64,000 nucleotides of DNA. Origin: Paraspadella gotoi. Taxonomy: Eukaryota; Animalia; Chaetognatha. Each line of letters starts with the position of its first letter. The stretch's first letter is position 1. Shown piece after piece: positions 8,463 through 48,877 of the stretch. Both the position numbers and the translations under genes were made by a program. The notes beneath the pieces are model-generated. The model was not told where the DNA came from, made no database searches, and saw only the letters and a program-made list of their open reading frames with translations. Location: the NCBI GenBank assembly GCA_051294375.1, contig CM119263.1:8025935-8089934 (forward strand), read 5' to 3'.

Positions 8463-9008
8463 GATTTTGACCAATCAGAAAGGTTTAAAAATTATCTCCA
8501 AACAAAGAGCTGCACCGGAACCAAACGATGTTATTTGTGCTCTACCATTGAAAAACAAGGTCCCCGGATGAATGGTTTGTAATTATAAGAAGTTATTAGT
8601 AAATTTTACCAGAAAAAACCTTTTGTTTTGTTTATTTCATAAAAAGAATGTTCATAGTTCAATATCATTTGCTATATCATGATTCAAGTCATCGCCCACG
8701 AGTATAGTTCTTTATGCTAATTCTACTGCCCGAACCTCTTTCGCAATTCTTCCCGATTATAATTCAAAATAAGTGATAATTCTAAAAAGACTTAAGTTAA
8801 GACCCAAACATTAATCTTTTTTTTTCTTCAACCGACCAGAATATTGACGATCAGATTTTGCACGCAACTCAACCCTGTTCCAGTGGACTCCGCTCCACCA
8901 CATTCTTCTCGCTCCATCTCGTTCCTTCTTTTCGCTCAGTTGTTCTTGCGCTCAGTTTCGAAATTTTCTCCGAGCTTTTCCAGGTCCCTGGATTTTCGAA
9001 CTGCGGAG

Positions 9009-9016
9009 TATAAAAG
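9009..9016 (+). promoter_or_regulatory. TATA box of SQSTM1
   Basis: TATAAAAG about 270 bp upstream of the first candidate ATG (9284), with a pyrimidine-rich initiator-like sequence ~30-40 bp downstream. Confidence 0.55.
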
Positions 9017-9283
9017 GGAGGAGAACGAATACGAGATCAAACGCTTCTCAACTCTCAACTCTACGCGATACGGAAAAATAAATTTTTCTCGCCAACCAAA
9101 CACAATAAAATATATATATAAATATAAATCAACCGATAATCCTAACATCGAAACGTCAGAAAACAACAAATCAATCTTATTCTCTCGAGTCTGCAGTCTT
9201 TCAGATTCTCTCTAATAATTTACAATACGACGAAATTTCTTTTTTTTACAAAAAAGAAAGATTTTTTCATTGAATTTCGCAAA

Positions 9284-11877
9284 ATGAATTCGTCTCGAGC
9301 TTCGTCGTCGGCGGGTTTCCAGGCGGGCAGGGTGGGTTGATTGACTGAGTCTGACCTTTTTGGTGATTGTTTTCCAGGCTGGACAGGTGGGTTGATTGAC
9401 TGATTCTGAACCTTTTTGGTGATTGTTTCCAGGCTGGACAGGTGGGTTGATTGACTGATCTGACCTTTTTGGTGATTGTTTCCAGGCTGGACAGGTGGGT
9501 TGATTGACTGATCTGACCTTTTTGGTGATTGTTTTCCAGGCTGGACAGGTGGGTTGATTGACTGATTCTGACCTTTTTGGTGATTGTTTCCAGGCTGGAC
9601 AGGTGGGTTGATTGATGATTCTGACCTTTTTGGTGATTGTTTCCAGGCTGGACAGGTGGGTTGATTGACTGATTCTGACCTTTTTGGTGATTGTTTCCAG
9701 GCTGGACAGGTGGGTTGATTGATTGATTCTGACCTTTTTGGTGATTGTTTCCAGGCTGGACAGGTGGGTTGATTGACTGATTCTGACCTTTTTGGTGATT
9801 GTTTCCAGGCTGGACAAGCGTGATTGATTGTCTGATTCTGACCTTTTTTGGTGATTGTTCCGCGATTTTTCAAAAAATCCTAATTATTGGTAATTTTTAG
9901 ATAAGTTGTACGGTTTGTCTGATCTTTTTGAAAACTCATGTTACAATTTTTTTTTCTAATCTCACGCCCCCGATACCTTCACAATCACAATCACAGATGA
10001 GCGTGAAAGCCTTTCTCTACTCCGACGTGGCCCGAGTTGGAGAAGGCGACCCGGAGGTACGTCGCTTCCCCGTCGACGAGTCGGCCGCCACCAGCTTCAC
10101 TTACCTGAAGGAGAAGGTCAAGCAGTACTTTCCGCAGCTGCAGCGGCGGGAATTTCAACTGTACTGGAAGGGTGAGTTTACTATCGGTCATCGACATGTT
10201 AAATGTATCGAATGGACTTAGTTAAAATGGATTAAACAATTAATCAATAAACCGATTAACCAAATTCAGATTCTGACGGAGATTTCGTCTCTTTCTCTTC
10301 GGACGACGAACTCGTGGAAATCCTGACTGAAATGACGGCGGCGGAGAAACCGGATCCGATGCAGGTGATCAATCAATCAATCACATGATTTAATCACTCA
10401 AGCGAAAAATCATTTCATTTTTCTTGTCAATCTTTCAAAGCCGTTGCTGAATTGAGACAGTCAAATCTATTCACAAAGAAGTCAATCAATCAATAATGTA
10501 ATAATCAATCAATCTATTAACCATTCTATCAATCTTCATTCTTAAGGATAACCCCACTCAACTGCTATTGAGAATTTTCATCTTGGCGCCGCTATCTTCG
10601 ACATCCGGTCAGCAATCCGCGCCGCAAGGCGCCGCCCAATCGGTTCCGCAAGGCGAGCCTCAGAATCCGCTGCAGGACGTCCTCTTCAACTTTTTTAGCG
10701 CCTTCAATCCTGACGGCGCCGCGCACTCCGCCGCGCACAACGCCGCCCACGCCGCCGGTCATGCAGCCGGAGCTGCAGCCGCCGCGGCCTCCGCGTCCAA
10801 AGCCGCCAGCGCCGCCGCCGACGCTCCGGCGCCGGAGCCCGCCTCATCGGCGCCGGCGGGAGACAACGGAACCGGAAACGAAGAGCGCAGACATATCGGC
10901 GTCGTTTGCGACGGATGCGAGGGACCCATCATCGGTAAGATTTTGTCGTCGTCGCTGTTGTTGTTGTTATTGATGTAGCCTTTATCGGTAAAGGTCGTCA
11001 TTGTCATTGTCTTGCTCATCATCGTAAATTACATGGTCTTTTTAGTAGTATTATTGTTGATTTTCAAATTTATCGCCAGGAATCCGCTACAAGTGCATGG
11101 ACTGCCCCGACTACGACCTTTGCTCGGCCTGCTTCGGGAAGAACCTCCACAGCGAGCACGCCATGATGACGATCCAGCGCCCGGGAGACGGGAGGTGAGT
11201 CTGAGACTGAGAAGCAAAATCAAGAATAAAGAAAGTGAGGCGCCGTACAATACCGCTCTTTCTCAAACTTACCGAAAAATTGGTATCCCGTTTTGTTCAA
11301 AAGTCATTAAAGATCAGTGCTTATTTAAGAATAAAAATCAAGTTATCTATGGAATCATTTCGTTTTTTCTTTATCGTATTGATATTTAAAGACCAAATAA
11401 ATTCCTTATCAACAACTCTCTTTCTCTATATTCTTTTTNNNNNNNNNNNNNCCCCCTATTTTTTCTCTTTTTCCAAAGTTTTATTTCTCGGTAATTAAAT
11501 TTCTGCAGGTTACGGTTCCTCGATGCCGCAATGCCGTAATGCCGCGATGCTTTACTCTTTTCCTTCATTCCCCTTCTCCCATTCGCGCTAGGTTCAAAGC
11601 CCACCCGTTTTTCTTCGGAGGACGCCGTGGCGGAGGATGGGGTTGCCGCTTCGGACGCAGTCACCCGTACAAGGAGCACGGACCGCACGGGCACGGACCG
11701 AACGGGCACGGACCGCACGGGCACGGACCGAAAGGGCACGGACCGAAAGTGCACCTTCCACACTGCGCAAAAGGGCAAAGGCGCCAAAAGAAGATGCAGG
11801 AGATGGAAGAGATGATGAGGAATGTGGTGAGTCGAGTGGAGAAATTGCACAAATTGCAAAAATGCTATTGATGGAAA

Positions 11878-11923
<46 letters not shown>

Positions 11924-13916
11924 CGATGATGATGATCTACCGAGAAGATTGTAATAGTCATTTCTTTAAAATTTTTACAGTTGCAACAGTGTCTCGCGGA
12001 TCCGGCCGCCGCCGCTGCCACGGCAGCTGCAGCAGCCAACGTGGCCAGCGAGGCTTTTGGGTTCAGCCCGAACGAGGAACAGAATCCTGGTGAGAGGAAT
12101 TTATTTTGATAATGCACTCAGGCTTACGGAATGTCTACTGTCTTGTCTTGTTTGTTTTTTTGTTCATTGTCTCAAATCGCATTTTTTCCTCACGACAGAT
12201 TTCTCGATGGGCGATGGAATGTCGTCCGGCGATAACCCAACTTCCGACGCCGACAAATCCGCTTCCGCCCAAAGCGGCGCCGACAAATCGAACGCGGAAT
12301 CGACGGCGCAGAAGGGAAACGAGGAATACCTCAAATACGTCGGCCAAAGCGTAGCCGCCATGTTGGATCCGCTCGGCATCGACGTCTTGGTAAGAGTCTG
12401 CTTGACATCTCCCGTTACCACGGTTTTCGTTTTGAATAGTTGATTGAATTTGATTGATTGAATTTTATTTGTTTATTTTTTTTTGGTTTATTGATAGATT
12501 TATTGATTAATATAACAGTTTTTTAACATTTTATTTCTCTGTTCAAATCCTAGATCGACGTTGAGACTCCAGCCGGGCGTCGCGAAAAAGCCGCGGAAAC
12601 AAAGAAGAAAAACGAGGAAGAAACAAGCATGGAGGCCGACGTCGCTAAAGTAACCAATCAATTGTATTTTGAATATTTTATTTTGTTGCAAGTGCATTAC
12701 CTTCTCGATTGTTTTTTCATAAATCGTTATTAAAAAAAAAAGGAATTATTTCGCCAGTAGGATTGCCGACGACTCTAAAACTGCCCTTTATGGCAACGGG
12801 AGGATAGCCTGTGATACCGGGGCGCGGGGTATCTCACCAACTGGCGTAGGGGCTGCGGACCCTCAGTGACCGCCTCCTGTCACTGGCATGTTTATACCGG
12901 CACCGTCACATTTAAGCCAGAACGGGATACCCGGGATTGAACCCGGGACGCACGGATGGAATGAGATGATTTAGCCTGCTCAGCCAATGAGACGAGGCTG
13001 AGGACGGACAGCAGGGAGGCAGCTTTAAGTCTTGCTGCCACACCTTCTCCTTTTCCATTTCAGGTGACGACCGAAGTCTCGAAATTGACGACCACCGACT
13101 CCGAAACTGGACAGGCTACAACGTCTACAACGACAACGACAACAACGACAACTGATCCCGATGTCGCCGTCGCCGGCGCCAACGACGATGACGACGACGA
13201 GGTGATGCTGGAAGACGGCGCCGCCGCTACCAGCGACGCCGCGGCGAAGGACTCCAGCGATGACGAGTGGCACGTTATCCCGCCGGCGATGACGCCCGCT
13301 TATTCCGAGAAAGCGGGCAAGGGAAAAGGTGAGGCGGGGGAAGAGGAAAAAGGTGGGTCGGGCAAAGGGGGAAAGGTTGAGGCGGGCCAATGAAAAGATA
13401 AGGCGGGCATACGGGCGAAAATTAATGAAGAAATTCGATTAACCAAAACGAGGCCGATTATTAGTTTTTGAATAAGAATGTTGGGTTATTTTTAATGATT
13501 TTATGAGTTTAAGATAAGGTTGGTTCGTTTTTAATTTTAGCTGACTTGTATTTGTCCATTTTTTAGGCGCAATCCCCAAAGGAAACAAATCTAATAACGA
13601 AAGCCCAAACAAAAAGGGGCTACCACCCCACGTGGCCAAGAGCCTTTATCAGGTATTGTCATTCATCGGAAATAAAATTTGAACCTTATTTTAATTATAA
13701 TAAAGACTGACTTTCGGAACCAATTATTTATATTTTCTTCACACATTCGCTAACATTTTTTTTTCTTTATTTCATCGCCAGATGCAGTCGATGGGGTTCA
13801 GCAACGAAGGCCATTGGTTGGAACGACTCCTGTTGGCCAAAGACGGAAACATCTCGATGGCACTGGACGCCATCAACCCGAACAAGCCGGCAGCGGGCCA
13901 CGCCCATCACCAGTGA
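9284..13916 (+). CDS. SQSTM1: Sequestosome-1/p62 (ref(2)P) autophagy receptor: PB1-ZZ-LIR-UBA
   Basis: Possible leader exon 9284-9331. Exons 9997-10171 (MSVKAFL...EVRRF, PB1), 10270-10364 ([19 protein letters not shown] motif), 10547-10934 and 11080-11194 (ZZ finger [32 protein letters not shown]), 11592-11826, 11981-12089, 12199-12389 ([20 protein letters not shown]), 12554-12649, 13064-13328 (LIR DDEWHVI), 13567-13652 and 13782-13916 ([20 protein letters not shown]...ALDAI, stop). Confidence 0.95.
9317..9860 (+). repeat. 54-bp tandem repeat, ~10 copies, in SQSTM1 intron 1
   Basis: Unit TTCCAG GCTGGACAG GTGGGTTGATTGACTGATTCTGACCTTTTTGGTGATTGT. Copies are near-identical with no spacers. Confidence 0.95.
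12780..12995 (-). mobile_element. tRNA-derived SINE in an SQSTM1 intron
   Basis: The minus strand has an A-box-like TGGCTGAGCAGG (~12975-12986) and a B-box GGTTCAATCCC (~12933-12943). A diverged homologous copy lies at 58702-58884. Confidence 0.65.
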
Positions 13917-14587: not shown

Positions 14588-16486
14588 TCATTGGATGTGA
14601 CGTTGAATCCACCCGAGGAAAGGCTCCACCCTGTAGTATCCGCTGGGAAGAAGTAGACAGTGTGGTTCGGAGGCGAAATGAGCCACGCCGACGACCACGA
14701 ACCTATCGCCTCTTTTGACCACGAGAGGGCCACCGCTGTCACCGCCGCAGGCTCCGTAACTGCGTCCGTCTGAGAGAAAAGGACGGTGGACAAGGAGGGA
14801 AGGGTTGCGAAGTTGGAAGACGGTTGAGTCAACACTCTCCATCTTTGGACTTGACAAAAATATTTTTTTTACCAGTATGTCCGAAACAATAGATGTTGTC
14901 GTTAAAGGCGACGTCTGTTCATGAAGTAAAAATATAATTATTTTTTTAATTACTATTTCCTTTTTATTTATCTTAGCAAACAGGTATAAAATAGTAGTTA
15001 CCTCTCGCTTGAAATATTTTCTCCCACTTGGCTCTGCATTCGCTCAATTTCCAAATCGGTCCCGCTGTTTCAAGAAGAAACAAACAAAAAAACAACGCGT
15101 TAATTGGTTGGCTTCTTAGTGAAATGATATACAACATGCTTATTACAATTATGTTGCTGCTTAATTCGCAGGCGGCGTTTTGAACTCACCCGCTTGCTGC
15201 AAAAATCTCGGTTTGTTGGCGCGATTCTTCGTCTTGCTTGTGAAGCCGTAACCAGAGATGAAGCCCATTTCCCCTACGATAAACGTATTGGCGTAATATG
15301 ATCAAAATTTACGATCTTTAATTATATTATTATTCGTACCTTCAAAAGTTTCTCCTTTATTAGGCAGGCAAACCGGCCTCACGTATTTGGTTATTTTGGC
15401 CGGTTGTTTTAACTAAAAACAAGTATGTAGCAAAATTAAACACACATCTGGTAAAAAAAATATTTTTCTAGAAATTTTTTAAATGTTAAAATCTACGACT
15501 TTCATGTCACCCTGATGAGAGCAATGTCATTCAGGTTGAAGCCTTCCTTTTGAGCGCCTTCCACGTAATTTTCGTGAATGACAATTTTGTCCACATCGAG
15601 TCTTTGCTCTCCGGACTCTGGCATGTACTGATCACGGTCGCCTAACATCACTCTGAAAAAAACAGTGCAACCATCAGTATTAAACAAGGGATTAGTTTAG
15701 CGTGACAGACACTTTCCCGTAAGAGCAATCCAAACAACAGTAATTTGAATGATAGAAAAATCGCAACGCCAGTATGAATGCCGTGCTGTCAGATTAGTAC
15801 GAGAATCATATCAGCGATTACGCGAATTTCGAAGGGTCCTTGGTCGCCTTGAAACAGTGCGCTGCAGTAAGAATCCATCTGTCATTTAGCAGTGATCCGC
15901 CGCACAAATGCTGAAAAGTGCTGAAGGAGAAAAAAAAATCAGGTTCAGCAATTCGCGAAGATTCACTTACCTAAATCTTTAGCAATATTCGATCCTTACA
16001 CATCGCCCATGAATCTGACTTTCGTTTTAAGTCCCGCCTGCCAAGGCCACGCCCCTTCCGGCGCGATCTTCCCGCCGACGACGAAAGGCTCCACCGCGTC
16101 GGCCGCGTCCGTCAAAAGCGCCGCCTCGCTTTCCTCAGGATGAAGCTGAGGAAAAGGGAGATTAAACAAAAGAACAGCGCTCTATTTTAATTCTTACTTC
16201 TCGATCCTCACCTTTCTTTGCGCGGTTTCGTAGTCGGCGGTGAGTTGGGCCAAGGAGGTGAGGCGGAACCTCGGATCTTCGAATCCTCTCTTCTCGGAGT
16301 AGCTGATGACGCGATCTCCGCAAGCATCCCCTTGTAAAAAAAAATAAAGAAAAAAAAGAAGAAAAAAATAAAGTAATAAAAAAAAAGGCAAAACAATTTT
16401 AAAAAGTCGAAGACAAAGACAGAAATTGAACTTACCTTCGCTGAGAAGCGAACCGAAAATAAAAAGGAGGGACGTCAAAAACAAAT
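14588..16486 (-). CDS. Secreted S1A (chymotrypsin-clan) serine protease; start codon falls in an N gap
   Basis: Signal peptide ([15 protein letters not shown]), activation site F-VVGG...[42 protein letters not shown] and stop at 14588. About 10 phase-compatible exons; the catalytic triad is intact. Confidence 0.93.
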
Positions 16487-17070
16487 NNNNNNNNNNNNNN
16501 NNNNNNNNNNNNNNNNNNNNNNNNNNNNNNNNNNNNNNNNNNNNNNNNNNNNNNNNNNNNNNNNNNNNNNNNNNNNNNNNNNNNNNNNNNNNNNNNNNNN
16601 NNNNNNNNNNNNNNNNNNNNNNNNNNNNNNNNNNNNNNNNNNNNNNNNNNNNNNNNNNNNNNNNNNNNNNNNNNNNACTGTCGCTGGAAGCTTATCTATT
16701 TTTTGATACAAGGACTTGTTTTGTTTCATTTTAATCAAATCTGTCACTTTTTTCTCCACGAATCTTCATTAAAAAAGAAAACCAAGGAAAAAAAATATTG
16801 ATAAAATGGCTCGCGAGAATTAAATCGCTTTTTAATGAACAAAAAAAAATTGCGCTAATACATATGTACATTGATAAAAAAAGATCATAGGTTAAGGTGA
16901 AAGCAGTAATTACAATTATTTACATATTAAACACCTATTTAACTTTTAACAGTCGTCATTCAGAAGAACTTAATTCATTTTAAAAGGACCGAGTGATTGT
17001 CCGAAGTTTCTCTTCAAGCACGCCTCATGACAGAGAGACAACTTCACCAACCACACTTCCCATTTCCGTT

Positions 17071-18950
17071 TCAAGAGTCTCCACGACGCAGAAACTCTTT
17101 GACGTTCTCGTTTTCGTCCAGGCCTTCGAACTCTTCGTCCGCCGTCGGCTCCTCCAGCACGATCTTCGGCACACTCGTCCAACCGCTCGTCGACGCTGCC
17201 GTCGAACCTCGGAAGCGAGAAGCGTCTTCAGTCGAGGCAGCGTAGCTGCAGTCTGCCGGCGTTGCGGAGGCATTGGCTGCGGCGGCCTTGGTTGAGAAGC
17301 AGCGCTGCGAAAAAATAATTTTTACATTGTTTTGAGTCGTATACTTCAAAACTCAAAAACAAATTCAAATCTTTATATTCGAGTTAACTCATTATAAAAA
17401 TTATCTGCGTAAGTATCCATTTTATTTAATTCTGAATCATAAAAAGTTAAAAAAGACTCAACAGCATCTCCATTGAGAAAAATTATGACAGCGGATCTCT
17501 TCTTACCTCGATGCATCGGATTGGAAAAAATATGGCGCACTGATGGCCATCAACGATCAGGCGAAGTAAAATGTGGCGTTGTAATTTTGGTGAGATGTCG
17601 TAAACGAATCCTGCCGAACGAGAAAACAGAATCAAACTTTTTTGGTGAAAGTTATTTTCAGTAATCTTTTACTATAAAAATTAGATTTACGAGTCACAAA
17701 GTGTAAGTATTTAATTTTCTTAGTGATTTTTTTCCCAAATCTCACACTGGCACTCCAGCCAATTCTCCCTCACCAGCCATAGGGGCTCCGATAATTGTGG
17801 CGATGCCCTGGAACAACGAAAGCAGGCCAAACGAACTGGCCAATCTTTCCAGACCCAAAATGTCAGCCAGAATCGGGGTTCGAAGAGAGATAAAGATGGC
17901 TGTCAAAAACAAACCCGGGAAAAAGTGGGAAAAAAATTAAGAATATTTTTGTTTTTTATAGAAAAAACCTAACTAACATAATCTAATATTAATAATATAG
18001 AATAACTCAACCCTGATAAGAATGAACAAGAACTGAAATTATGTTAACTGCACGCCAAACTATAATTGCTATAACCCCGCATAACGACTTTCTAGCAACA
18101 AGGGAACCTGCAAAAGAAATTGATAAAGGGGTCCGAAATTTCTTAGCACGGCCCTGAGATTCAAAAGACCGTAATTACCTATGCACAACCCGAACACGAC
18201 TCCGTAAATGATTAAACTGACGTAAGTCGTGCAGAATGGAACCAAAATGGTAGCCACGCCCCCTGGAAACAAAAGAAGCAGAATCTGACGTCGTTGATAG
18301 CGAGTGGACAATGAGATGTCGCTTTTATGTACTTATTTTTTTATGTTTTTCATATATTTGATAAATTAATTGACCGATAAAGAGGGCAGCGCTGTTGAAG
18401 TAGAGTTTATCGGTGCAGGGAAGATCGGCGATGAATCCTGAGCCGATTCGGCCAACAGTGTTTGCTATTCCCATCACCTGAAGCGTCGAGTTTCGATGGA
18501 TTAATTATTAAACATTTTTTTAAAGGTTTTTAACGTCCCAAAAACTTTCTCATAAAGGCCGAATTAATTCTTGCTGGTAAAGATTTTAACCTGAATGATA
18601 AAATCTCCTTCGGCTTTACCCAGATTAATTTCCCCGGCGTAACTCGGAACGTAGAAAAAAGGGATGAAAAATCCTNNNNNNNNNNNNNNNNNNNNNNNNN
18701 TCATCAGCGAACGAAGTTTTAATATTAATAATTAATTATATTAACATTAAGGACTAATTTCCTGCATTTTCAACCGACTACTTCCTTCTCACACGGACCG
18801 TCATGCTTAGAAAGCTGGAGACGCAAATGATGCAGAAGACCGGACTCTTTGAACAGCGTCCACGGTCCATACATGATCATCAATGTCGCGTTAAGGCGTT
18901 CGACATCAGGGCCGCAGAAAGTCCGGGTTGAGCCGTGACTTGAAAAACGT
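17071..18950 (-). CDS. C-terminal exons of a monocarboxylate transporter (SLC16, MCT12/14-like, MFS)
   Basis: Exons read GFFIPFFYVP, VMGIANTVGRIGSGFIAD, GGVATILVPFCTTYVSLIIYGVVFGLCI, AIFISLRTPILADILGLERLASSFGLLSLFQGIATIIGAPMAG and GFVYD, with a last exon ending at 17071. A few single-base errors are present. Confidence 0.85.
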
Positions 18951-21470
18951 GAGTAATTCTGCAAAGAAATTCGTCGCTACCATTCAAATTGGGATTCCTG
19001 TATCGAAGAGAGCCTGACTGAACAATAGGTCAATTCTGGCAAAATTCGTCCATTCAAATTGGGATTCCTGTATAATCAAAGAGAGCTGACTGAAAACACG
19101 TAATACATGCACAAAATTCCAATTCTAAAATTGCATTCAACAACAAGAGAGCGAGAAAAAGAAAACTCGTAAGCCCAGGCATTAAGCTACATCCTTTAAT
19201 CTCACATTCAAAAGAACAGAGGCGAAATCTCGTGAGGCAGCCTATAAGTCCGCCCTAATCCATTAGCGCCTGGGACCGCATGAGTTGAGGGACATCGATT
19301 GCTGACAGATCGTCTGGTGACGTCCCTTGACTCCCTGTAAGGGGAGTTCCTACGCTAGGAATTGATGATGGCTCCCCGACGAAGTAGAGTTCGCGACGGG
19401 ATGGTGACTCGAGACGCATCCTCGACAGATAGAAATTGAAGGGTAGTCCTAAGAGAGATTAGAAAATTGTAGTAGTAGCCTGATGCAGAATTTGGACCCC
19501 CGCAGGTAGTTGATGAGACATGATCCTAAGTAGAGCGCTAAGTGAAAGATAGAAATTGAGGTTAGTCTGCAAGCAATGAATTGCGGTACATTGGAGAGAG
19601 ATGTAGAAATTGAGGTAATAGTTGTAATGAGCATAAATAGAACATTGAGGTAGGTTGAAGAGAATTTAGAAAATTTTCGTAAGTGCTAAAGGAAGATAAT
19701 GAGAGTTGAGAGATTAAGAAATTGAAGGTAGTTCGAATAGATTAGAAATTGGAGAGTTGAGCAGGAGTATTAGAAAAAGAGGGATGACTTTTTAAAATAT
19801 ATGTTGATTTCCCTCTTCAGGCCGCAGGGCATATCTATTATAAATCTAGGGGAAACAAGAATCGCCTAATTCGTTATTAAAAAAGGTAAAAATACATCAC
19901 GTCTAGGATGTTTCAATTAGGTACATTGCGTTTTTGTTCTTAGGTTAGTAAAAGTCATTAATGATAGAATATCCAGCAAAAAAAAAAAAAAAAAGAGTTT
20001 GGTTTAACTGAGATGATGAAAAATAGGATATGGCAATAAGATTTAAAATTTAAGAAAAATGGTTCAAATTATAAAAAGGTTGCGTCTTTTTCAAAGAGAT
20101 GTCGTCTACCCTCTGCTTCGTCGTCAGATCGCCGCCTCCGACATTTGCGCGACACCCAATGACTTTCGCTCACTGACTCGTCCCCAGTCTTCGTCAACGC
20201 CTCCGCCGCCGTCGCGCCCACGCCTCGCGCACGCCGCCCCCGCCAACCGTCCCTCGATTCCCAGGGATTCCCCTAGAAAAATCCCGTCGGGTCGTGCTTC
20301 GAGGCGGCGTGGGTTGGAAAGACGTTTGTGGCGACGAGTGATGTCCCAGCTTCGGAGATTTTTTGAATCTCCTCGTCGACTGATGTTTCTGGAAATCGAT
20401 GACATGATGGAGAGGGTGAGAGAGAAGAGAGGAAGAGAGAAGAGAGAGAAAGAACGAATTACTGGAAATACTATGATCAGCTATTTTTTTAATCTATGTG
20501 GCACCTCCTGCTTTTGATATCTTGATCCATGATTTGTTGGAACCCGGTCGGATTGCTGGCGCGAGCTCTGCAGTGAGCCAAGAAACGAGTGTAACCATAA
20601 TAAGCCAAATTAGGTGAAATTTTGGAAAATATCCGATGATAATTAATCATTTGTCGCGTGGTATATTCACACCATCACACGTTCCATCGCCGTTCAGCCC
20701 AATACCTAGTTTGCTTCATGAGGGGGAACACAACCATCCCAGGCGTCCGTGTTTTCATCCACAGTCCTAACGATTCATCTACGTTGGCAAAGCGCAACCG
20801 TCCTGGGTACCGCGTTACTGAGGGTCGGAAGCCTCGAGTGACGGCTGTTGCCATCATATTCATTAATTAATCATGCTATAAAAAGTTATTGCAAATTTTT
20901 GGATGGGTTTTTTTTTTTTCCAAATAAAGAATATAGGATTGACCAAAAAACTTTACTACCGCGTAATTGGTTGATCCAGAGATTTGTTCGATTTTTTTAA
21001 AATTAAGAAATTGGCCTTGATTGACCTGATTCAGCTGAAAAAGCATTAGTGAATAAGAATTTGGGGGAAAAATGGAATGAAAGAAAAAAAGGTTATTATG
21101 AATATTATCATTTTGTTTATTAAGCTATTTTTTCAGTCACCACGTTTTTGTCGTTGGTTATCAATAACTCACCCCACGTAAGGTTTTTCGATCGTTGCCA
21201 CCGTATCTCTCCCAGTTGATCGCGTTGACTTCGCTAACACTTACACCAGCAAGCGTGAAACGTTCGGTTGAGCCGAATTCCCCCCGACTGAGTTGCCCTG
21301 ACCCGCTCCCTGCCCTGCCGGGGAAATTAGATGGTTCCTTGAATCGAGAAGCCCGAGGAAAGAAGAGAGACAGACCCGACTTACGACCGTATTACACCGA
21401 GGAATGTCTCCACTGGGGATTTTTTATGATTCTTTTTTTTATTGAACAGATAGACAACCACCAGATATAA
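18750..21470 (-). other. Error-rich copy of the middle MCT exons (loop region), equivalent to ~27820-30800
   Basis: Same exons and the same 25-bp intronic repeat as 27.8-30.8 kb, but with dense indels. Confidence 0.75.
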
Positions 21471-21559: not shown

Positions 21560-24500
21560 TTAATCGAGTCAAACGCGGATCACTTGGAAGAGATCGGGGC
21601 AGTGCCGGATCGAAACCTTCACATGTAATGTTGAAGTTTATTAGAATAACAAACGACAAATAACAACACGTATAGATCCACTGAGGATATTACAAAAAAA
21701 AATAAGTAAAAGAAAAAATACGGTAAGATAACATCTTGAAACTGACAAAAATAATTACATACAAAAAATGATAATATTCATAATAACCTTTTCATTCAAT
21801 TCCCATTTATTACCCACCCATTTCCTATTCACATAAATTGTTATCACTGACACTCCAATCATAGATAGGCCAATGCTTAATTTTAAAATCGAACAAATTC
21901 TCTGGATCAAACCAATCTTCAAGGTAGTAGTTTTTGTGTCAATCCTATAATATCCTTTCATCTTTTGGAGAATAAAACCCCAAAATTGCAAACTTTTTAG
22001 CAGATTAATAATTACATGAATAATGGGATGGCAACAGCCGTCAACTGAGGGCTAATCCGACCCTCAGTAAACTGCGAGTTACTACTGAGGACGTGCGCTT
22101 GCACAATCGTAAGAGTGAAGTCGTAGGACTGTGCGAATGCTAACACGACGCCTGGGAATGAAGTGCTTGTTTCCCCCTATGAGCCAATAGTATTGTGGCC
22201 TGAACGCAGCATGGACGTGACGGTGGTGTGAATATTACCCACCACAATGATTAATTATCATTCGATAATTTTCAAAATCATTATTTTGCTTATTATGCGT
22301 TTACACTTCTCTTTCTTGCTCTACGCAGAGCTCCCGCCAAGAGCAACTCGGACCGGGTATCCAACAAATCATTGCGATCAATATCAAAACCGAAGGGTGG
22401 CCACAATAGATTAAAAAATAATAGGTCCTGATCAATTTATTCAGTTAATTCGTTCTTTCTCTCTTTTCTCTCTTTCTCTTTCCTCCTCTCTCTCCAATCC
22501 CTCTCCATCATGTTCATCGATTTCAACATTCATCAGTCGACGAGGAGATTTCAAAATCTCCGATAGTGGACATCCACTCGTGGCCACAACGTCTCCAACC
22601 ACGACGCCCTCGAAGCACCGACCCGCGATTTTCGGGGAATCCTCGGGAGAACCGTTGGCGGCGCGGCTGATGGCGCGACGCGCGGCAAGGGATAGGTGGC
22701 GGTCAGGAAACGGCTGCGCGTATCGGCGGCGAGGCCGGGGAGGGGCTAGAACGACACTTGACGAAGACGGCGACCGGAGGTCAATGGAGCCGAACAGTAA
22801 TTGGTATTGTCGCAAAATGTCGGAGGCGCGCGATCGGACGACGGAAGCAGAGGGGAGAGACCGACATCTTCTTTTTGAAAAAGAGACAGGTCACTTTTTA
22901 TACTTGACCATTTTTTTTAATTTTAAATAATCTTAAATTGCCATATCCTTTTCATCATCTCCAGTTAACCACAAACTTCCTTTTTTTTTTTTTTTTTTTA
23001 GCTGAATAATTTCATATTCATTATGACTTTTAAACCTAAGACAAAAAAAACGCAATATTACCTAATTTTGAAAATCTAGACCGTGATTATTTTTACCATT
23101 TTTTTTAACCTCGAATTAGCCGATTTCTCTGTTTTCCAACTAATAAATTTCAATAGATTGCCTCCTGAAAGGAAATTCAACATATATTTTAAAAAGTTCA
23201 TCCCTCTTTTTCTAATCTCCTCAACTCTCTCAATTTCTAAATCTATTCAACTACCTCAATTTCTAATCTCCTCAACTCCCTCAATTTCTAATCTCTTCAA
23301 CTACCTCAATTTCTAATCTCTTCAACTAACTCAATTTCTAATCTCTTCAATTACCTCAATTTCTAATCTCTTCAACTACCTCAATCTCTTAATCTCATCA
23401 AAATACCTCAAATTTTCTAATCTCATCAACTACCTCAATTCTAATCGCATCAACTACCTAAATTTCTAATTCTTTCCAACTACCTCAATTTCTAAATCTC
23501 GTCAGGATCGTCTCGAGTCACCATCCCGTCGCGAACTCTACTTCGTCGGAGCCCTCAATCAGATTCCCTACAATAGGATCACGATCTGACATCAAGTCCA
23601 ACATCGCCAGCATGATTATGCCTTCATTCAGGCGGCCTCCAGGCCTAATGGAATTTAACAGGTGACGGGACGATTAGAGCCTGGCCTTGACGAGTTTTTT
23701 TCTCTCTTGTTGCTTTTTGTTGATTAAAAATTATTTTGTCATGTTTACTTCATTTTCAGTCAGGCTCTCTTTGATAAAGGAATCCCAATTTTGAATTGGA
23801 CGAATTTTTGCAGCAATTACTTTCAGTCAGAGCTCTTTTGATACAGGAATCCCAATTTCTGAATAGGACGAATTTTTGCAGAATTACACATTGACCTGTT
23901 TTTCAGTACAGGCTCTCCTTCGATACAGGTGAATCCCCCATTTGAATAGGACGAATTTTTGCAGAAAATTGACCTGTTTTCAGTTCAGGCTCAAACCCGG
24001 ATTTCGCGACGCGAACCTCGAGTGATACGCATCTACGCGGACATTGAGATCAATGAATGGACGTGACGCTGTTTCAAGAAAGTCCCGTCTTCGTCATCAT
24101 TTGCGTCTCCAGCTCTTCTAAGCATAGACGGAGTGTGAGAAGGACGAGTCGGTATGAAAATAGGAAATTAGTCAGTTAAATTAATTAATTAATTAAATTA
24201 ATTAATTAAATTAAACCTTCGTTTCGCAGGATTTTTCATCCCTTTTTTCCTACGTTCCGAAGTTACGCCGGGAAATTAATCTGGGAAAAAGCGAAGGAGA
24301 CTTTATCATTCAGGTTAAAAGTCTTTACCAGCGAAAAATTAATTCGGCCATTATGAGAGAAAGGTTTTTGGGGACGTTAAAAACCTTTTTAAAAAAACGT
24401 TTAATAATTAATCCATCGAAACTCGACGCTTCAGGTTGATGGGAATAGCAAACACTGTTGGCCGAATCGGCTCAGGATTCATCGCCGGATCTTCCCTGCA

Positions 24501-27228
24501 CCGATTAAACTCTACTTCAACAGCGCTTCCCTCTTTACGGTCAATTAATTATTTATATAATATCTATGAATCAGTAAAAAATAATAAATAACTAAAGTAG
24601 CATAAAGCACATCTCATTGTCCATCGCTATCAACTCGACTGTCAGATTCTGCTTCTTTTGTTTCCAGGGGGCGTGGGCTACCATTTGGTTCCATTCTGCA
24701 CGACTTTACGTCAGTTTAATCATTTACGGAGTCGTGTTCGCGGTTGTGCATAGGTAATTTACGGTTCTTTTGAATCTCAGGCCGTGCTAAGAAAATTCGG
24801 ACCCCTTTATCAATTTCTTTTGCAGGTTCCCTTGTTGCTTGACAGTCGTTATGCGGGTGTAATAGCAATTATAGTTTGGCGTGCAGTTAACATAATTTCA
24901 GTTCTTGTTCATTCTTATCAGGGTTGAGTTATTCTATATTATAATATTAGATTATGTTAGTTAGGTTTTTTTTCTATACAAAAACAAAAATAATTCTTAA
25001 TTTCTTTCCACTCTTTTTTCCCGGGTTTGTTTTGGACAGCCATCTTTATCTCTCTTCGAACCCCGATTCTTGGCTGACATTATTTGGGTCTGGAAAGATT
25101 GGCCAAGTTCGTTTGGCCTGCTTTCGTTGTTCCAGGGCATTCGCCCACAATTATCGGAGCCCCTATGGCTGGTGAGGGAGAATTGGCTGGAGTGCCAGTG
25201 TCTGGAGATTTTTCGGGAAAAAAAACCACATCACTAAGAAAATTAAATACTTACACTTTGTGACTCGTAAATCTAATTTTTTCTCATAGTAACAAACATT
25301 ACTGAAAATAACTTTCACCAAAAAAGTTTTGATTCTGTTTTCTCGTTCGGCAGGATTCGTTTACGACATCTCACAAAATTACAACGCCACATTTTACTTC
25401 GCCGGATCGTTGATGGCCATCAGTGGCGCCATATTTTTTCCAAATCCGATGCATCCGAGTAAGAAAGAGATCCGCTGTTCATAATTTTTCTCAATGGAGA
25501 TGCTGTTGAGTCTCTTTTTAACTTTTTTATTTGATTCAGAATTAAATAAAAGGATACTTACGCAGATCAATTTTTATAATGATTAACTCGAATATAAAAG
25601 ATTTGATTTGTTTTTGAGTTTTGAAGTATACGACTCAAAACAATGTAAAAAATTATTTTTCGCAGCGCTGCTTCTCAACCAAGGGCCGCCGCACGCCAAT
25701 GCCTCCGCAACGCGCGCAGACTGCGAGCTACGCTGCCTCGACTGAAGACGCTTCTCGCTTCGAGGTTCGACGGCAGCCGTCGACGAAGCGGTTGGACGAG
25801 TGTGCCGAAGATCGTGCTGGAGGAGCCGACGGCGGACGAAGAGTTCGAAGGCCCTGACGAAAACGAGAACGTCAAAGAGTTTCTTGCGTCGTGGAGACTC
25901 TTGAAACGGAAATGGGAAGTGTGAGTTGGTGAAGTTGTCTCTCTGTCATGAGGCGTGCATTAAGAGAAACTTCGGACAATCACTCGGTCCTTTTAAAATG
26001 AATTAAGTTTCTTCTGAATGACGACTGTTTAAAAGTTAAATAGGTGTTTAATATTGTAAATAATTGTAATTACTGCTTTCACTCTGCTATGATTCTTAAT
26101 CGTGTGAATTTTTATCAATGTACATATGTATTACGCGCAATTTTTTTTGTTCATTAAAAAGCGATTTAATTCTCGCGAGCCATTTTATCAATATTTTTTT
26201 TCCTTGGTTTTTCTTTTTTAATGAAGATTCGTGGAGAAAAAGTGACAGATTTGATTAAAATGAAACAAAAACAAGTCCTTGTATCAAAAAATAGATAAGC
26301 TTCCAGCGACAGTATTTAAACTTTTACTCGTCGACATATTTTGCAAAATTTTTGGAAAAAAAAATGGATTTGTTTTTGACGTCCCTCCTTTTTATTTTCG
26401 CGTTCGCTTCTCAGCGAGGTAAGTTCAATTTCTGTTCTTGTTCTTTCGACTTTTTTAATTTGTTTTGCCTTTTTTTTATTACTTTATTTTTTTCTTCTTT
26501 TTTTTCTTTATTTTTTTTTTACAAGGGGATGCTTGCGTGAGATCGCGTCATCAGCTACTCCGAGAAGAGAGATTCGAAGATCCGAGGTTCCGCCTCACCT
26601 CCTTGGCCCCAACTCACCGCCGACTACGAAACCGCGCAAAGGAAAGGTGAGGATTCGAAGAAGTAAGAATTAAAATAGAGCGCTGTTCTTTTGTTTAATC
26701 TCCCTTTCCTCAGCTTCACTCCTGAGGAAAGCGAGGCGGCGCTTTTGACGGACGCGGCCGACGCGGTGGAGCCTTTCGTCGTCGGCGGAAGATCGCGCCG
26801 GAAAGGGGCGTGGCCTTGGCAGGCGGGACTTTAACGAAAGTCAGAGTTTCATGGGCCGATGTATTGTAGGATCGAATATTGGCTAAAAGATTTAGGTAAG
26901 TGAATCTTCGCGAATTGCTGAACCTGATTTTTTTCTTCCTTCAGCACTTTTCAGCATTTGTGCGGCGGATCACTGCTAAATGACAGATGGATTCTTACTG
27001 CAGCGCACTGTTTCAAGGCGACCAAAGGACCCTTCGAAATTCGCGTAATCGCTGATATGATTCTCGGTTACTATCTGACAGCACGGCATTCATACTCGCG
27101 TTTGCGATTTTCTATCATTCAAATTACTGTTGTATTGGGATTGCCTTCTTACGGGAAAGTGTCTGTCACGCTAAACTAATCCTTTTTAATACGATGCGTT
27201 GCTAAGTGTTTTTTTCAGAGTGATGTTA
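21560..27228 (+). other. Inverted, indel-rich duplicate of ~15644-21240 (MCT 3' exons plus protease 5' exons), likely fold-back assembly artefact
   Basis: Reverse-complement match throughout, e.g. 25660-25990 vs 16990-17310 and 26360-27228 vs 15644-16486. Differences are mostly single-base indels. Confidence 0.85.
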
Positions 27229-27934
27229 ATTAGAGGGGGGCGGGGAAACCCCCCCGTTTGGAGAGAGAGAGAAAGAGAGAAAGAGAGAAAGAGAGAAAGA
27301 ACGAATTACTGAAATAATTGATCAGCTATTTTTTTAATCTATTGTGCCACCTCGTTTTGATATTGATCCANNNNNNNNNNNNNNNNNNNNNNNNNNNNNN
27401 NNNNNNNNNNNNNNNNNNNNNNNNNNNNNNNNNNNNNNNNNNNNNNNNNNNNNNNNNNNNNNNNNNNNNNNNNNNNNNNNNNNNNNNNNNNNNNNNNNNN
27501 NNNNNNNNNNNNNNNNNNNNNNNNNNNNNNNNNNNNNNNNNNNNNNNNNNNNNNNNNNNNNNNNNNNNNNNNNNNNNNNNNNNNNNNNNNNNNNNNNNNN
27601 NNNNNNNNNNNNNNNNNNNNNNNNNNNNNNNNNNNNNNNNNNNNNNNNNNNNNNNNNNNNNNNNNNNNNNNNNNNNNNNNNNNNNNNNATCATTTGTGGT
27701 GGTATATTCACACCACCTCACGTCCATGCTCGTTCAGCCAATACTATTGGCTCATAGGGGGAACACACCATCCCAGGCGTCGTGTTACATCCACAGTCCT
27801 AACGACTTCACTNNNNNNNNNNGATTCAAAATTGGGATTCCTTTATCAAAGAGAGCCTGACTGAAAATGAAGTAAACATGACAAAAATAATTTAATCAAC
27901 AAAAAGCAACAAGAGAGAAAAAAAACTCGTCAGG

Positions 27935-30900
27935 CCAGGCTCTAATCGTCCCGTCACCTGTTAATTCCATTCGGCCTGGAGGCCGCCTGATGAAGGCTAA
28001 TCATGCTGGCGATGTTGGACTTGATGTCAGATCGTGATCCGATGTAGGGAATCTGATTGAGGCTCCCGACGAAGTAGAGTTCGCGACGGGATGGTGACTC
28101 GAGACGATCCTGACGAGATTAGAAATTGAGGTAGTTGAAGAGATTAGAAATTTAGGTAGTTGATGCGATTAGAAATTGAGGTAGTTGATGAGATTAGAAA
28201 TTGAGGTAGTTGATGAGATTAGAAATTGAGGTAGTTGAAGAGATTAGAAATTGAGGTAATTGAAGAGATTAGAAATTGAGTTAGTTGAAGAGATTAGAAA
28301 TTGAGGTAGTTGAAGAGATTAGAAATTGAGGGAGTTGAGGAGATTAGAAATTGAGGTAGTTGAATAGATTAGAAATTGAGAGAGTTGAGGAGATTAGAAA
28401 AAGAGGGATGAACTTTTTAAAATATATGTTGAATTTCCTTTCAGGAGGCATCTTATGCAAGATTACGGTCGAAAACAAGATAGCTAATTCGATTAAAAAA
28501 AATGGTAAAAATAATCACGTCTAGATTTTCAATTAGGTAATTTGCGTTTTTTTGTCTTAGGTTTAAAATCATAATGTATAGAATTATCAGCAAAAAAAAA
28601 AAAAAAAAAGAGTTGGTTTTAACTGAAGATGATGATAAAGGATATGGCCAATAAGATTTAAAATTTAAAAAAATGGTCAAATATAAAAAGTGACCTGTGC
28701 TGGCGTATAGTTCACACCGCTCACGTCCACCATCCGTCAGCCAAATCCATTGGCTCAGAGGGGGAACACACCATCGCCAGGCGTAGTGTTCCATCACAGT
28801 CTAACGACTTCCCTCTGGCGTTGGCAAAGCCGAGACCGTCTAGCCGGCTAGGGTAACCGCGCCAGTGACTGGAGGCGGTTCCACTGAGGGTCGGAGCCCC
28901 CACGCCACACGTGAGATGCCCCCATCCCTTGCCGGCACCTCACAGGCCAACCCGGCTGTTGCCATAAGTGGTGAGCCCTACTATCGAACACGCAACCTCT
29001 CAGGCGTACGCCTACGACAAACGCCTAGCCCTGCCCGACTTCGTCGGTTACGCTAACGACAAATGGCCTATGCCCCTGGGTACGCCTTACAACAAAACGC
29101 CTATGCCCCCACAACTCGCGCTCTCTCTCTCTTCTCCACTATGGTAACAGTCTTGTTCACGACACCTCTCAGGCTTAAGGAACCTGACGTGATGTCTTGG
29201 CCCGGGGATCCGTGCCGGTATATTCACACCCCTCACGCTCCCAACCATCCGCTACAGCCAAATCCATTAGGCTCAGAGGGGGAACACAGCCATCCCAGGC
29301 GTTAGTGTTCCATCCAGTCCTAACGACTTTCCCTCTGGCGTTGGCCATAAGCGTGAAGACCGTCCTAGGTAACCGCCGCGAGTGACTTGCGAGGCGTCAT
29401 TTTGAGGGTCTGGAAGCCCCCCAAGCCAACAGTGAGATCGCCCATCCCAATGAGCATCACAGGCCAACCCGGCTGTTGACCCATACCTGTCTCTTTTTTC
29501 AAAGAGATGTCGCGTCTCCCCTCTGCTTCGGTCGTCGATCGCCGCCTCCGACATTTGCGACACCAATACTTTCGCTCATGACTCCGTCCCCGTCTTCGTC
29601 AACGCCTCCGCCGCCGTCGCCCGCCACCGCCATCACGCCGTCGCCAACGTCTCGTCCCAGGGATTCCCCGAAAAATCGCGGGTCGTGCTTCGGAGGCGTT
29701 CGTGGTTGGAAGACGTTGTGGCCACGAGTGATGTCCACTTCGGAGATTTTGAATCTCCTCGTCGACTGTATGTGTTGAAATCGATGACATGATGGAGAGG
29801 GATGAGAGAGAAAGAGAGAAGAGAGAGAAAGACACGAATATTGAAACAATTACGATAATGTGAATTTTTTTAATCTATTGCCCACCTCGTTTTGATATTG
29901 ATCCAATGATTTGTTGGAACCCCGGTCGAGTTGCTGGGCGGGAGCTCTGCGTGAGCAAGAAAGAGGTCTGTAACCATATAAGCAAAATTATGATTTTGAA
30001 AATTATCGATGATAATGTAATTTCATTTGCTGGTGTATATTCACACCACCTCACGTCCATGATCGTTCAGCCAAAACCATTGGCTCAGAGGGGGAACACA
30101 ACATCACAGGCGTTGTGTTCCATCCACAGTCCTAACTCCTAACGACTTCACTCTACGTTGGCAAAGCGCAACCGTCCTAGGGTAACCTCGCCAGTGACTG
30201 GATGCGTCACTGAGGGTCGGGAGCCCCCGAAGCCAACGGTGAAATGCCCCATCTCAATGGGCATCACAGGCAACCCGGCTGTTGCCATCCATTAATCATA
30301 AATTAAGCTAAAATTTATTTCAATTTGGGTTTTTTTTTAATCCAAAATGAAAGGAATAATAGGATTGACCAAAAACTTACTACCGAATTGGTTTGATCCA
30401 GAGATTTGTTCGATTTTAAAATTAAAGAAATTGGCCTTGATTGACTGATCAACTGAAAAAGCATTTAGTGAATAAGGAAATGGGGGAAAATGGGAATTGA
30501 AGAAAAAAGGTTATTATGAATATTATCATTTTGTTTATTAATATTTTTGTCAGTCACAACGTTTTTGTCGTTGTTATCAATAACTCACCAGTGAAGGTTT
30601 CGATCCGCTGCCAACCGATCTCTCACGTGATCGCGTTGACTCGACTGTGAAACTTCGGTTGGAGCGAATTCCGACTGGAGTTGCCTGACCGCTCCTGCCT
30701 GGCGGGAAATTAGAGGTTCCTGAATCGAGAGCGAGGAGAGAGAGAGAGAGACAGACCGACTTACCGACGCTATTACAACGAGGAATGTTCACTCCGCCGG
30801 ATTCCTTTCCTGATAAATAAAACGGAATTAATATTAATAATATTAATTTTGTTTTAACTTTTTTATCAATATACGTTGGAAGTTGAAAAGCGTCGCAAAA

Positions 30901-32686
30901 TATCATCTGTTCCTGACTTTTGCATATCTTTTCACGTGAATAGGATCGACATTTGCTACTCTCTCTCGCGCAGGCGCTACCACCCATCCGCCTCGCCGTC
31001 TCTCACCATCTGTCCATCTCTCACCGTTTTCATCGCCCCAGATGATTGCGTACTCTCCCATTTCGTTGACAATGTCGTCGTCGCCGTGAAGGGTGATCTT
31101 CCGGTCGCGTTTCGCCTTCGCCATCAGTTGGAGGAGACCCTTGACTCGCCCATCCTCCAAGGATGTGCGCCTGAGGTGGAAAATGTGACGTTCAAAAGAT
31201 TATATTTTTTAATGAATGTCAACGTAAAACTTCAAGTCTAATCATCTTAATTTTCTTTTCATTCAATAATCCATTCTTTTTGTCAGCAGTGATTACATCT
31301 TATAAATACATGGTGTGCTTACTGCTTACTGCTTACTGCTTAGTGCTCACCCCTTTCGTCGGCTTTTTATGGAGGCTCTCTCTCTCTCTCATCCTCTCTC
31401 TCTCTCTCATCTCTCTTCTCTTCTCTCTCTCTCCTCTCTTTCTTCGTCTTTCTCTCGCTCTCTCTCTGCATTTCTCTCTCTCTCTCTCTCTCATCTCTCT
31501 CTCCACATCCAAGCAACCTCCTCCGGGCCGTCTCGGGCGTCCTGTCTCGGCGGGTCGGAAGAGAGCGCCGAAGACGCAACCGTTGAGAATGATGCCAGCG
31601 ATGATCCAGTTGGCGCCGCGGACGCCGTATTCGTTGAGGAGAAGCCTTTGTTAGAGAGTGGTCGTTCTTGGTTGATTGGTTTGAATTTATTTGCTTCGTT
31701 TTTTATCGCATTGTTGCTAAATTTACTGCAACTTATAAATCAAGTAAAAATAACATACGATTCTAAGCTTCCTCTCGTATTGCACATGTTCCTTTTCGAG
31801 CGCGCACCTGGACAAAGGAGCGAAGACGAAAGCGCCGATGCCGGATCCGCAAACGGCGATGCCGGTGGCGAGAGCGCGGTGCTTTTCGAACCAGAGGCCG
31901 ACGATGAGAACGGCGGGTAAGTAAACGAGCCCGAAGCAGATGCCTGGCAATGGTAGATGCAATTAAGTATACGGGTCTGAAGCATATGCCTGTAAATGTA
32001 ATATGAAATTAGGTATAAGAGTTCAAAACGGATGTAAAGAAATGGGAGATGCAATTAAGAATATGAGTCTAAAGCAGATGCCTGGGAATGGAAGGTGCAA
32101 TTATCGATTTAAATGAATTTTCCAATTATTTGTCTTCATTACGTGGTGCATAAAAATTTGAATAAAGAAATCAATAGAGTTTATTTCCAACTGTTCGGTC
32201 GATACCTCCTAGGGTCCCGTAAGTGAAGATGAGCATATCCACGGAGGTGCTGTAGGTGCTGGCGACGAAGGTGATGCAACCGAGGAGACTTCCGGCGACG
32301 GTCACCGAGCGGAACCCGTAGCGGTTGCAGAGCGTCGAAGAGATGGGGCCTGATTGGGACAAGACGGGCGAGATTGTGGAAGTCCAGTTTTCCTAAAAAA
32401 AGAGACTTACCCAAGGTAAGGTAGAACCCGGCCAAAAGAGATCCCACCCAGGCCATCTTGGATTTGCTGCATCCGACGAAATGTTCCATGAAGGCCACGT
32501 TGAAGATTCCGAAGGAGAAGCATACACCGTCGACGATCACCTCGGGGGAGATGGAGAAAGATTTTTTTTTTGGTAGAAATATTGTTGTGAGCGACATCTT
32601 TTACTTGACACAAAAGCGAAGCCACAACGATGGCCCAACCGAAACCCCCATCCGGAGGTGGATGGCGCCCCAGGTCGTTCCATTCT

Positions 32687-47805: not shown

Positions 47806-47843
<38 letters not shown>

Positions 47844-48490: not shown

Positions 48491-48877
48491 CGTCTGTCCA
48501 TTCGCATAAATTCAAATCTGTTTGCATTTTTTTGTTAATTTTAAAATGGTAATCTGTTTATGCGTTTGTTAATTCCTAAGGAAAAAGAAACAAAAGCGTT
48601 AGAATTAATTATAAAAAAAAAGTTTTGTCGATTCTTTTTCTTTTGATCCCATCGACATAAATTAAAAGAAAAGCGACAAAAAAAGTAAATTAACTCGAAC
48701 ATAAGGTGAAAATTAATATATTCTAATTTTAAACATAGTAAATGAAAGAAAACTTTTGATATTGGTTGTAAGAATTTCATACAATACAATATTACTAGGA
48801 ACAAAGTTTAACTACGAGCAAAATTTGAACTCAAGCTCACTGCCTGGCGCGCGATACCGAGATGGCATGAAAACGTA

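What the first reader, a model, noticed from the sequence alone, without database searches (positions are those of the whole stretch)
9284..9996. 54-bp array in p62 intron 1 reads as a ladder of in-frame 9-nt micro-exons and ~45-nt mini-introns
Seen in sequence: an upstream ATG (9284) gives [16 protein letters not shown] and ends at a phase-0 donor (GTGGGT, 9332). The PB1 exon acceptor sits immediately before its ATG (9997), so the two join in frame. The repeat unit is the end of that leader exon plus the start of the intron. Each copy therefore reads acceptor (TTGTTTCCAG), then GCT GGA CAG (Ala-Gly-Gln), then donor GTGGGT, branch-like CTGAC and a T-tract. Eight copies have both sites intact (9378, 9433, 9486, 9540, 9594, 9647, 9701, 9755) and a ninth has lost its donor. 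The 9-nt core is invariant in those eight, and all length variation (44-46 nt) falls in the intron-like part. Inference: this may be intron gain by tandem duplication caught in progress, a variable (AGQ)n N-terminal extension in front of the polymerising PB1 domain, or a recursive-splicing ladder. Caveat: the shortest other intron candidates I inferred here are ~56-65 nt.
Basis: partly seen in the sequence, partly recalled or inferred. Interest (0 to 1): 0.78.

Follow-up and report, generated by a model that had tools for sequence, protein, structure and literature searches.

The report
Splice-donor minisatellite in invertebrate p62 intron
In an invertebrate p62 (autophagy receptor) gene, the end of exon 1 and its splice signal are copied nine times into intron 1, but the one assembled transcript available joins exon 1 straight to exon 2 with none of the proposed 9-base mini-exons, so this is likely a tolerated repeat of a kind already known from human F7 and lancelet genes.

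Summary
The array is real: 54-bp unit, about 10 copies, 9315-9859, eight with AG, 9-nt core and GT intact. The unit is the last 17 nt of exon 1 plus the first 37 nt of intron 1, so the 'acceptor' is a copied exon triplet. In run X1 one spliced contig (depth 112.5) runs through the leader exon and joins it directly to the PB1 exon with no core inserted; a relative's spliced protein P0004 also has leader then PB1, no repeats. A second X1 contig holds the unit unspliced (84 nt, depth 69.2). Core invariance is not beyond chance (P 0.40). This matches known exon-intron-boundary minisatellites (human F7, CBS; amphioxus 'mirages'); the scan has noted this kind in 20 findings from at least 16 genomes. 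The leader exon is confirmed and ATG 9284 is its only ATG. Limits: one run, contigs only, array laid as one unit only, so minor micro-exon or downstream-donor isoforms and recursive splicing are not excluded. Ordinary; interest 0.2.

The parts
8902..9331 (+). Exon 1: 5' leader plus 16 coding codons from ATG 9284 (only ATG in 8902-9331). 5' end is where the contig starts, not a mapped start site
   Evidence: X1 contig lies on 8902-9327 with 0 other letters; ATG scan
9315..9859 (+). 54-bp minisatellite, 10.1 copies; unit = last 17 nt of exon 1 + first 37 nt of intron 1
   Evidence: unit present unspliced in X1 as an 84-nt contig
9332..9996 (+). Intron 1, 665 nt, GT..AG, removed whole in the dominant transcript
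   Evidence: loose ends on both sides of the same 1342-nt contig
9378..9763 (+). Eight AG / 9-nt core / GT cassettes (pseudo-donors with a copied exonic CAG in front); no use seen
   Evidence: absent from the spliced contig
9809..9859 (+). Ninth, decayed terminal copy without GT
9997..10171 (+). Exon 2, first part of PB1 domain
   Evidence: Pfam PB1 E 0.086, below cut-off; 72-76% identical to P0001, P0003, P0004; spliced in X1
10270..10364 (+). Exon 3, rest of PB1
   Evidence: joints 10170>10269 and 10362>10545
10547..10934 (+). Exon 4
11080..11196 (+). Exon 5, ZZ zinc finger (3' end approximate)
   Evidence: Pfam ZZ E 1.4e-9
13785..13916 (+). Last coding exon, UBA domain (not RNA-checked)
   Evidence: Pfam UBA_5 E 6.7e-9

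Best explanation
The array is a tandem amplification of the exon 1/intron 1 boundary of p62, the assembled transcript splices from the first donor straight to the PB1 exon, and the later copies are likely silent decoy sites with no role of their own. Shown: unit anatomy, direct junction in the dominant contig, presence of the unspliced unit in the run. Inferred: the array arose by slippage or unequal crossing-over and is homogenised in its middle while both edge copies diverge; the most upstream donor wins as in human F7; the 'acceptor' exists only because exon 1 happens to read TTC CAG nine bases before its end; copy number probably varies between animals.
For: One 1342-nt contig of X1 (depth 112.5) covers 8902-9327, then continues into exon 2 with no added letters relative to a 9331-to-9997 splice, and goes on through three GT..AG joints. 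It is the only contig with a loose end at either side of intron 1. P0004, a spliced protein of a relative (74% identical over exon 2, runs on into exon 3), has a 15-aa leader ending in GQ directly before MSVKAF; 0 of 120 stored proteins have tandem xGQ in their first 130 aa (only 4 of them are close relatives). The same TTTCCAG at 9316-9322 is read through as exon in X1. A YAG lies within the last 17 nt in 23% of 596 positions of the p62 exons, in frame in 7.7%; YTRAY occurs in 32% and CTRAC in 5.7% of random 45-mers. Core invariance P 0.40. Introns with support in this window are longer: 98, 182, 145 nt (RNA), 66 and 79 nt (frame-supported, trypsin gene; the 50, 52 and 60 nt look-alikes failed). 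No unusual RNA fold (z 0.43, -0.94, 0.22). Precedent: F7, CBS, 6-16, LAMIN B2, PDGF (PMC1557585), amphioxus mirages (PMC3087553).
Against: One run, one study, contigs only; contigs drop rare forms. The array contig is deeper than other unspliced pieces: 69.2 in all, about 15 per window copy (13.5% of the mRNA contig), against 2.8 and 3.75 for other intronic or upstream contigs; this fits retention, a longer array in that animal or DNA in the run, but also use of downstream donors. The array's acceptors are more pyrimidine-rich than the true one and its donors match consensus at 7 of 9 positions. Skipping every second copy gives introns of about 99 nt, the size of intron 2, so 45-nt introns are not required for one to four micro-exons. 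In CBS and 6-16 two pseudo-donors are used (PMC1557585 introduction). The junction in X1 differs from the window on both sides (see full report), which is only partly explained. The two differences between the X1 exon end and the core are both synonymous (expected anyway if they arose in the coding exon).
Confidence: 0.8

Rival explanations
1. Leaky downstream donors: a share of transcripts splice from a later copy to the PB1 acceptor, keep 55-432 nt of array and hit the stop at 9338-9340, so the array lowers p62 output in proportion to copy number.
For: Donors are strong (7 of 9); every such form has an in-frame TGA three codons into the kept part; array contig depth is above background while 9862-9993 has no cover; CBS and 6-16 precedents; in X1 the second ATG reads ATA, so such forms could not restart there.
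Against: No contig joins a core to exon 2 (only one loose end at 9994); a hole in contig cover proves nothing; depth of contigs is no measure of copy number or level; in F7 only the first donor is used.
Confidence: 0.11
2. Micro-exon ladder: some copies are included as 9-nt exons and give p62 forms with (Ala-Gly-Gln)n between leader and PB1, perhaps in one tissue.
For: All cassettes are in frame and stop-free; acceptors look better than the true one; alternate copies give normal-sized introns; introns under 50 nt exist in some animals (PMC13644364 passages); one 45-nt candidate at 30764-30720 (minus) leaves one frame open, as does its 66-nt alternative, in a noisy duplicated stretch.
Against: Dominant contig has no core and is unbroken across the junction; P0004 has none; no sign of selection on the core; the branch-like A lies at spacer position 23, only 22 nt behind the donor, shorter than the 5' site-to-branch minimum of about 38-50 nt that I recall for flies and mammals (recalled, no call).
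Confidence: 0.06
3. Recursive splicing: each CAG|GT serves as a zero-length acceptor-donor, and intron 1 is removed in steps.
For: Every copy has CAG directly before GT with a T-rich stretch upstream; the end product would be the junction seen.
Against: Any copied CAG|GT exon end has this motif; a nearer-branch AG lies 9 nt earlier and is followed by GC, not GT; the intron is only 665 nt, whereas recursive splicing is known from long introns (recalled).
Confidence: 0.03

Closest known systems
Human F7 intron 7 37-bp VNTR (Borensztajn et al. 2006, PMC1557585; abstract, Introduction and first Results section read)
   Same: First unit spans the exon-intron boundary; donor repeated identically (also GTGGGT); five to nine copies; the first donor is the one used.
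   Different: Unit here is 54 bp with 17 exonic bases (F7: 4), which happen to hold a YAG 9 nt before the donor, so each copy also reads as an in-frame cassette; polymorphism and latent function of the pseudo-sites are shown for F7 and untested here.
Amphioxus 'mirage' minisatellites (Adh3, globins BflGb6, BflGb9; PMC3087553, 7 passages read)
   Same: Invertebrate tandem duplication of an exon-intron boundary; many copies carry AG/GT signals; regular splicing not disturbed; edge copies excluded from homogenisation; the authors already propose intron or exon gain from such copies.
   Different: Other phylum; shorter unit than the globin cases (150-160 bp); length instability not tested here.
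Human CBS intron 13 and 6-16 intron 2 minisatellites (as summarised in PMC1557585 Introduction; originals not read)
   Same: Same architecture.
   Different: There two pseudo-donors are used; here no such use was seen, at contig resolution.
Minisatellite-driven intron formation in human segmental duplications (PMC2812944, 7 passages read)
   Same: Tandem units carrying cryptic splice sites near gene-structure boundaries.
   Different: There transcripts support new introns; here the dominant transcript shows no new exon or intron.

Membership tests
Exon-intron-boundary minisatellite (F7-type VNTR / mirage) | Tandem array whose first unit spans a true exon-intron boundary | tested here: met
Exon-intron-boundary minisatellite (F7-type VNTR / mirage) | Splice donor reiterated in the intron | tested here: met
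   eight CAG|GTGGGT copies
Exon-intron-boundary minisatellite (F7-type VNTR / mirage) | Normal splicing from the first donor dominates | tested here: met
   one contig, one run; minor forms not resolved
Exon-intron-boundary minisatellite (F7-type VNTR / mirage) | Copy number varies between alleles | not testable with these tools
   no DNA run listed, no genome held; contig depth is no copy number
Micro-exon array | 9-nt exons present in spliced transcripts | tested here: not met
   dominant contig and P0004 lack them; applies to the dominant form only
Micro-exon array | Core and splice sites more conserved than spacer | tested here: inconclusive
   P 0.40 for core, 0.07 for the 22-nt block
Recursive splice sites | AG|GT motif with upstream pyrimidines | tested here: met
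   follows trivially from copying a CAG|GT exon end
Recursive splice sites | Stepwise intermediates or lariats | not testable with these tools
   intermediates would look like a shorter array allele
Intron gain by tandem duplication (Rogers model, cited in PMC3087553) | New intron absent from relatives and made of the duplicated unit | tested here: inconclusive
   P0001 and P0003 read into intron 2 yet start at the PB1 Met, which suggests intron 1 exists in relatives; their DNA could not be fetched
p62/SQSTM1 (ref(2)P) family | PB1, ZZ and UBA domains in this order | tested here: met
   homologue named ref(2)P

The most novel reading that the evidence does not exclude
A young splice-boundary minisatellite whose copies are by accident in-frame cassettes is already read at low level as a micro-exon array: one to four alternate copies, flanked by ordinary 99-nt introns, add (Ala-Gly-Gln)n in front of the polymerising PB1 domain, so repeat copy number sets the range of p62 N-termini. 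It would be a direct case of exon birth from a mirage, proposed for amphioxus but only as a model in the passages I read.
Probability: 0.07. Interest if true: 0.6.

Novelty: new member of a known kind. Interest (0 to 1): 0.2.

Why it matters
As it stands it is one more natural example that a row of identical donors does not disturb splicing, here in a small-intron invertebrate. Its one special feature, an in-frame AG in each unit, makes it a convenient test of whether such repeats can seed micro-exons: a single junction count in raw reads answers it. A by-product is a corrected p62 gene model with a coding first exon that gene callers starting at the PB1 Met would miss.

Tried and rejected
No genome is held for the window, so no genome-wide intron minimum and no search for other copies of the unit. 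The look-up of sequencing runs listed 3 runs, none on record as RNA, 1 holding the stretch; X1's GT..AG joints show it behaves as RNA; X2 and X3 laid only short unspecific pieces. The array was laid as a single unit only (9315-9386), so joints inside it were not examined. No cover on 9862-9993 in X1: no evidence either way. JGI metagenomes: 0 of 308 pattern matches encode a relative; 0 matches to the 22-nt acceptor-core-donor motif. Homologue searches found no full-length close relative; the four close proteins are singleton clusters. BLASTP finds no alignment between the window's leader and P0004's leader, so their homology rests on position, length (16 and 15 aa), Ser/Gly make-up and the GQ end only. 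RNA structure masking the donors: rejected. Antisense gene: the long minus-strand frames over the array have no ATG that opens them across the array; rejected as a repeat effect. Trans-splicing at the PB1 acceptor was considered because it is common in arrow worms (PMC12460157, passages), but the X1 contig is cis-spliced. That paper's 3 'intron' passages give no length figures. Literature searches for a described micro-exon ladder from a minisatellite (4 papers listed, listing only) and for p62 N-terminal extensions (8 listed, listing only) showed nothing on point; these two searches are the only basis for 'not found in print'. No supplements were read.

Full report
Observation. TRF gives 9315-9859, period 54, 10.1 copies, 95% matches. 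Eight copies have TTTCCAG, the core GCTGGACAG and GTGGGT; spacers are 44-46 nt; the ninth core at 9809 lacks GT. ATG 9284 opens 16 codons that end in phase 0 at 9331, and exon 2 starts at 9997.

Anatomy. The unit begins at 9315, inside exon 1: 17 exonic bases plus the first 37 bases of intron 1. The 'acceptor' of each copy is therefore a copy of exon 1's TTC CAG, which the transcript reads through as exon. How much luck is needed: a YAG lies within the last 17 nt at 23% of 596 positions of the p62 exons, in frame at 7.7%; CTRAC occurs in 5.7% and YTRAY in 32% of 5000 random 45-mers of the window. The full look is thus uncommon for a single array but expected now and then among many; the scan's notes list 20 findings of boundary minisatellites in at least 16 genomes. 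The invariance of the core is not significant: 5 variant types among eight units, P 0.40 for none in the core and 0.07 for none in the 22-nt block (spacer 0 and copy 9 were not in this count). Four of the five are single-base indels, and duplicated segments elsewhere in the window differ mainly by gaps, so some may be assembly noise.

RNA. Of 3 runs listed, X1 holds the gene. One 1342-nt contig of depth 112.5 lies on 8902-9327 without a difference and on 9994-10170, 10269-10362, 10545-10933 and 11079-11196, joined by GT..AG introns of 98, 182 and 145 nt. Its loose ends on the two sides of intron 1 are each other's exon, and record positions 426 and 428 are adjacent but for one letter, so exon 1 is joined to exon 2 with no core between. 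No other contig has a loose end at either site. A second contig of 84 nt (54 + 30, what one collapsed unit would give; inference) holds two cores with an intact spacer between them, at depth 69.2: the array exists in that sample with the same consensus and is seen unspliced. Per window copy this is about 15, or 13.5% of the mRNA contig, above the 2.8 and 3.75 of other unspliced pieces. Retained intron, a longer array, DNA in the run or use of later donors all fit; the tool warns that contig depth ranks none of these. Contigs drop rare forms and only one unit of the array was laid, so minor isoforms remain open.

The junction differs from the window. X1 ends exon 1 with GCG GGG CAG (Ala-Gly-Gln) where the window has GCG GGC AGG, one G moved between two G runs, and reads ATA where the window has ATG at 9997-9999. 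These are the only differences in about 1200 laid letters. For the first, X1 is probably right: it restores CAG|GT, lines up with the repeat core without a gap (two synonymous changes), and P0004's leader ends in GQ; a homopolymer slip in the window is likely. For the second, relatives have Met (P0001, P0003, P0004), so ATA is probably a variant of that sample. That both fall within 7 letters of the junction is not fully explained. With ATA, and no other ATG in 8902-9331, ATG 9284 is the only plausible start for a PB1-containing protein in X1.

Relatives. P0004 (122 aa, from a Logan contig, 74% identical over exon 2, continuing into exon 3) has 15 residues, Ser/Gly-rich and ending in GQ, directly before MSVKAF; BLASTP does not align that leader with the window's. 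P0001 and P0003 read into intron 2 yet start at the PB1 Met, which suggests that intron 1 is older than the array (inference; their DNA could not be fetched). None of 120 stored proteins has tandem xGQ near its start, but only four are close relatives. JGI metagenomes gave nothing.

Can 45-nt introns be spliced here? Supported introns in the window are 98, 145, 182 nt (RNA) and 66, 79 nt (trypsin gene, frame test; the 50, 52 and 60 nt alternatives failed). One 45-nt candidate at 30764-30720 keeps a frame open, as does its 66-nt alternative, in a noisy duplicate. PMC13644364 (passages) puts the shortest animal introns typically at 50-90 bp, with under 30 bp in two parasitic lineages. The branch-like A sits at spacer position 23. 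So adjacent copies are unlikely to be spliced, but alternate copies give 99-nt introns, so size alone does not exclude one to four micro-exons. Folding shows nothing special.

Mechanism and rivals. Most likely (0.8): a boundary minisatellite, first donor used, copies silent. In F7 the pseudo-sites work only when upstream ones are destroyed (PMC1557585, first Results section); in CBS and 6-16 two are used, in LAMIN B2 and PDGF none (its Introduction). Amphioxus mirages do not disturb splicing, exclude edge copies from homogenisation, and have already been proposed as seeds of new exons and introns (PMC3087553, passages). Rival 1 (0.11): later donors leak; all such forms meet TGA at 9338-9340 and would be unproductive. 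Rival 2 (0.06): micro-exon ladder as minor or tissue-specific forms. Rival 3 (0.03): recursive splicing at CAG|GT, which would give the junction seen and cannot be told from a shorter allele without lariats.

Verdict. Observation confirmed; interpretation partly supported (leader exon yes, ladder no in the dominant form). New member of a known kind; interest 0.2; the novel reading keeps a probability of about 0.07.

Noticed in passing
window 9323-9331 and 9997-9999: X1 contig differs from the window only at the exon 1/exon 2 junction: one G shifted at the exon 1 end and ATA for the PB1 ATG. Probably an assembly slip plus a variant, but the clustering is unexplained.
   Followed up: partly
window 9816-9824: The decayed donor of copy 9 shares 7 letters (8 with the X1 version) with the start of exon 2, as if an mRNA-like junction had been patched in; 0.5% of random 15-mers do this, post hoc.
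   Followed up: partly
window 15643-21137 vs 21741-27228; 22886-23796 vs 27824-28698; 20087-21407 vs 29495-30788: Inverted and direct duplicates of the trypsin gene and its neighbour that differ mostly by single-base gaps: likely noisy long-read patches or false duplications, so findings in these stretches need care.
   Followed up: partly
window 31917-32103: A 46-bp x 4 array starts one base into a GG|GTAAGT donor-like site; later copies have lost the G. Possibly a second, decayed donor-boundary repeat; not RNA-checked.
   Followed up: partly
window 23754-23992: Three 67-83 bp copies with acceptor-like TTTTCAG, one with a 22-nt stretch ending CAG|GTGAAT, inside a noisy duplicated region.
   Followed up: no
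window 8618-8620: A low-depth X1 contig has 59 letters where the window has one (record positions 29 to 89): insertion variant or collapsed assembly upstream of p62.
   Followed up: no
window 8902-9040: The contig starts about 110 nt upstream of a TATAAAA at 9009, so the TATA-like site is not the only start, or the contig includes upstream read-through.
   Followed up: no
window 44987-48511 (minus): 1174-codon open frame with a 45-bp coding-like repeat and no Pfam match at E 0.01.
   Followed up: partly
window 9972-9996, 10245-10269: True p62 acceptors are A/C-rich with little polypyrimidine tract, unlike the array's T-rich decoys, so pyrimidine content may be a poor guide to acceptors in this animal.
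   Followed up: no
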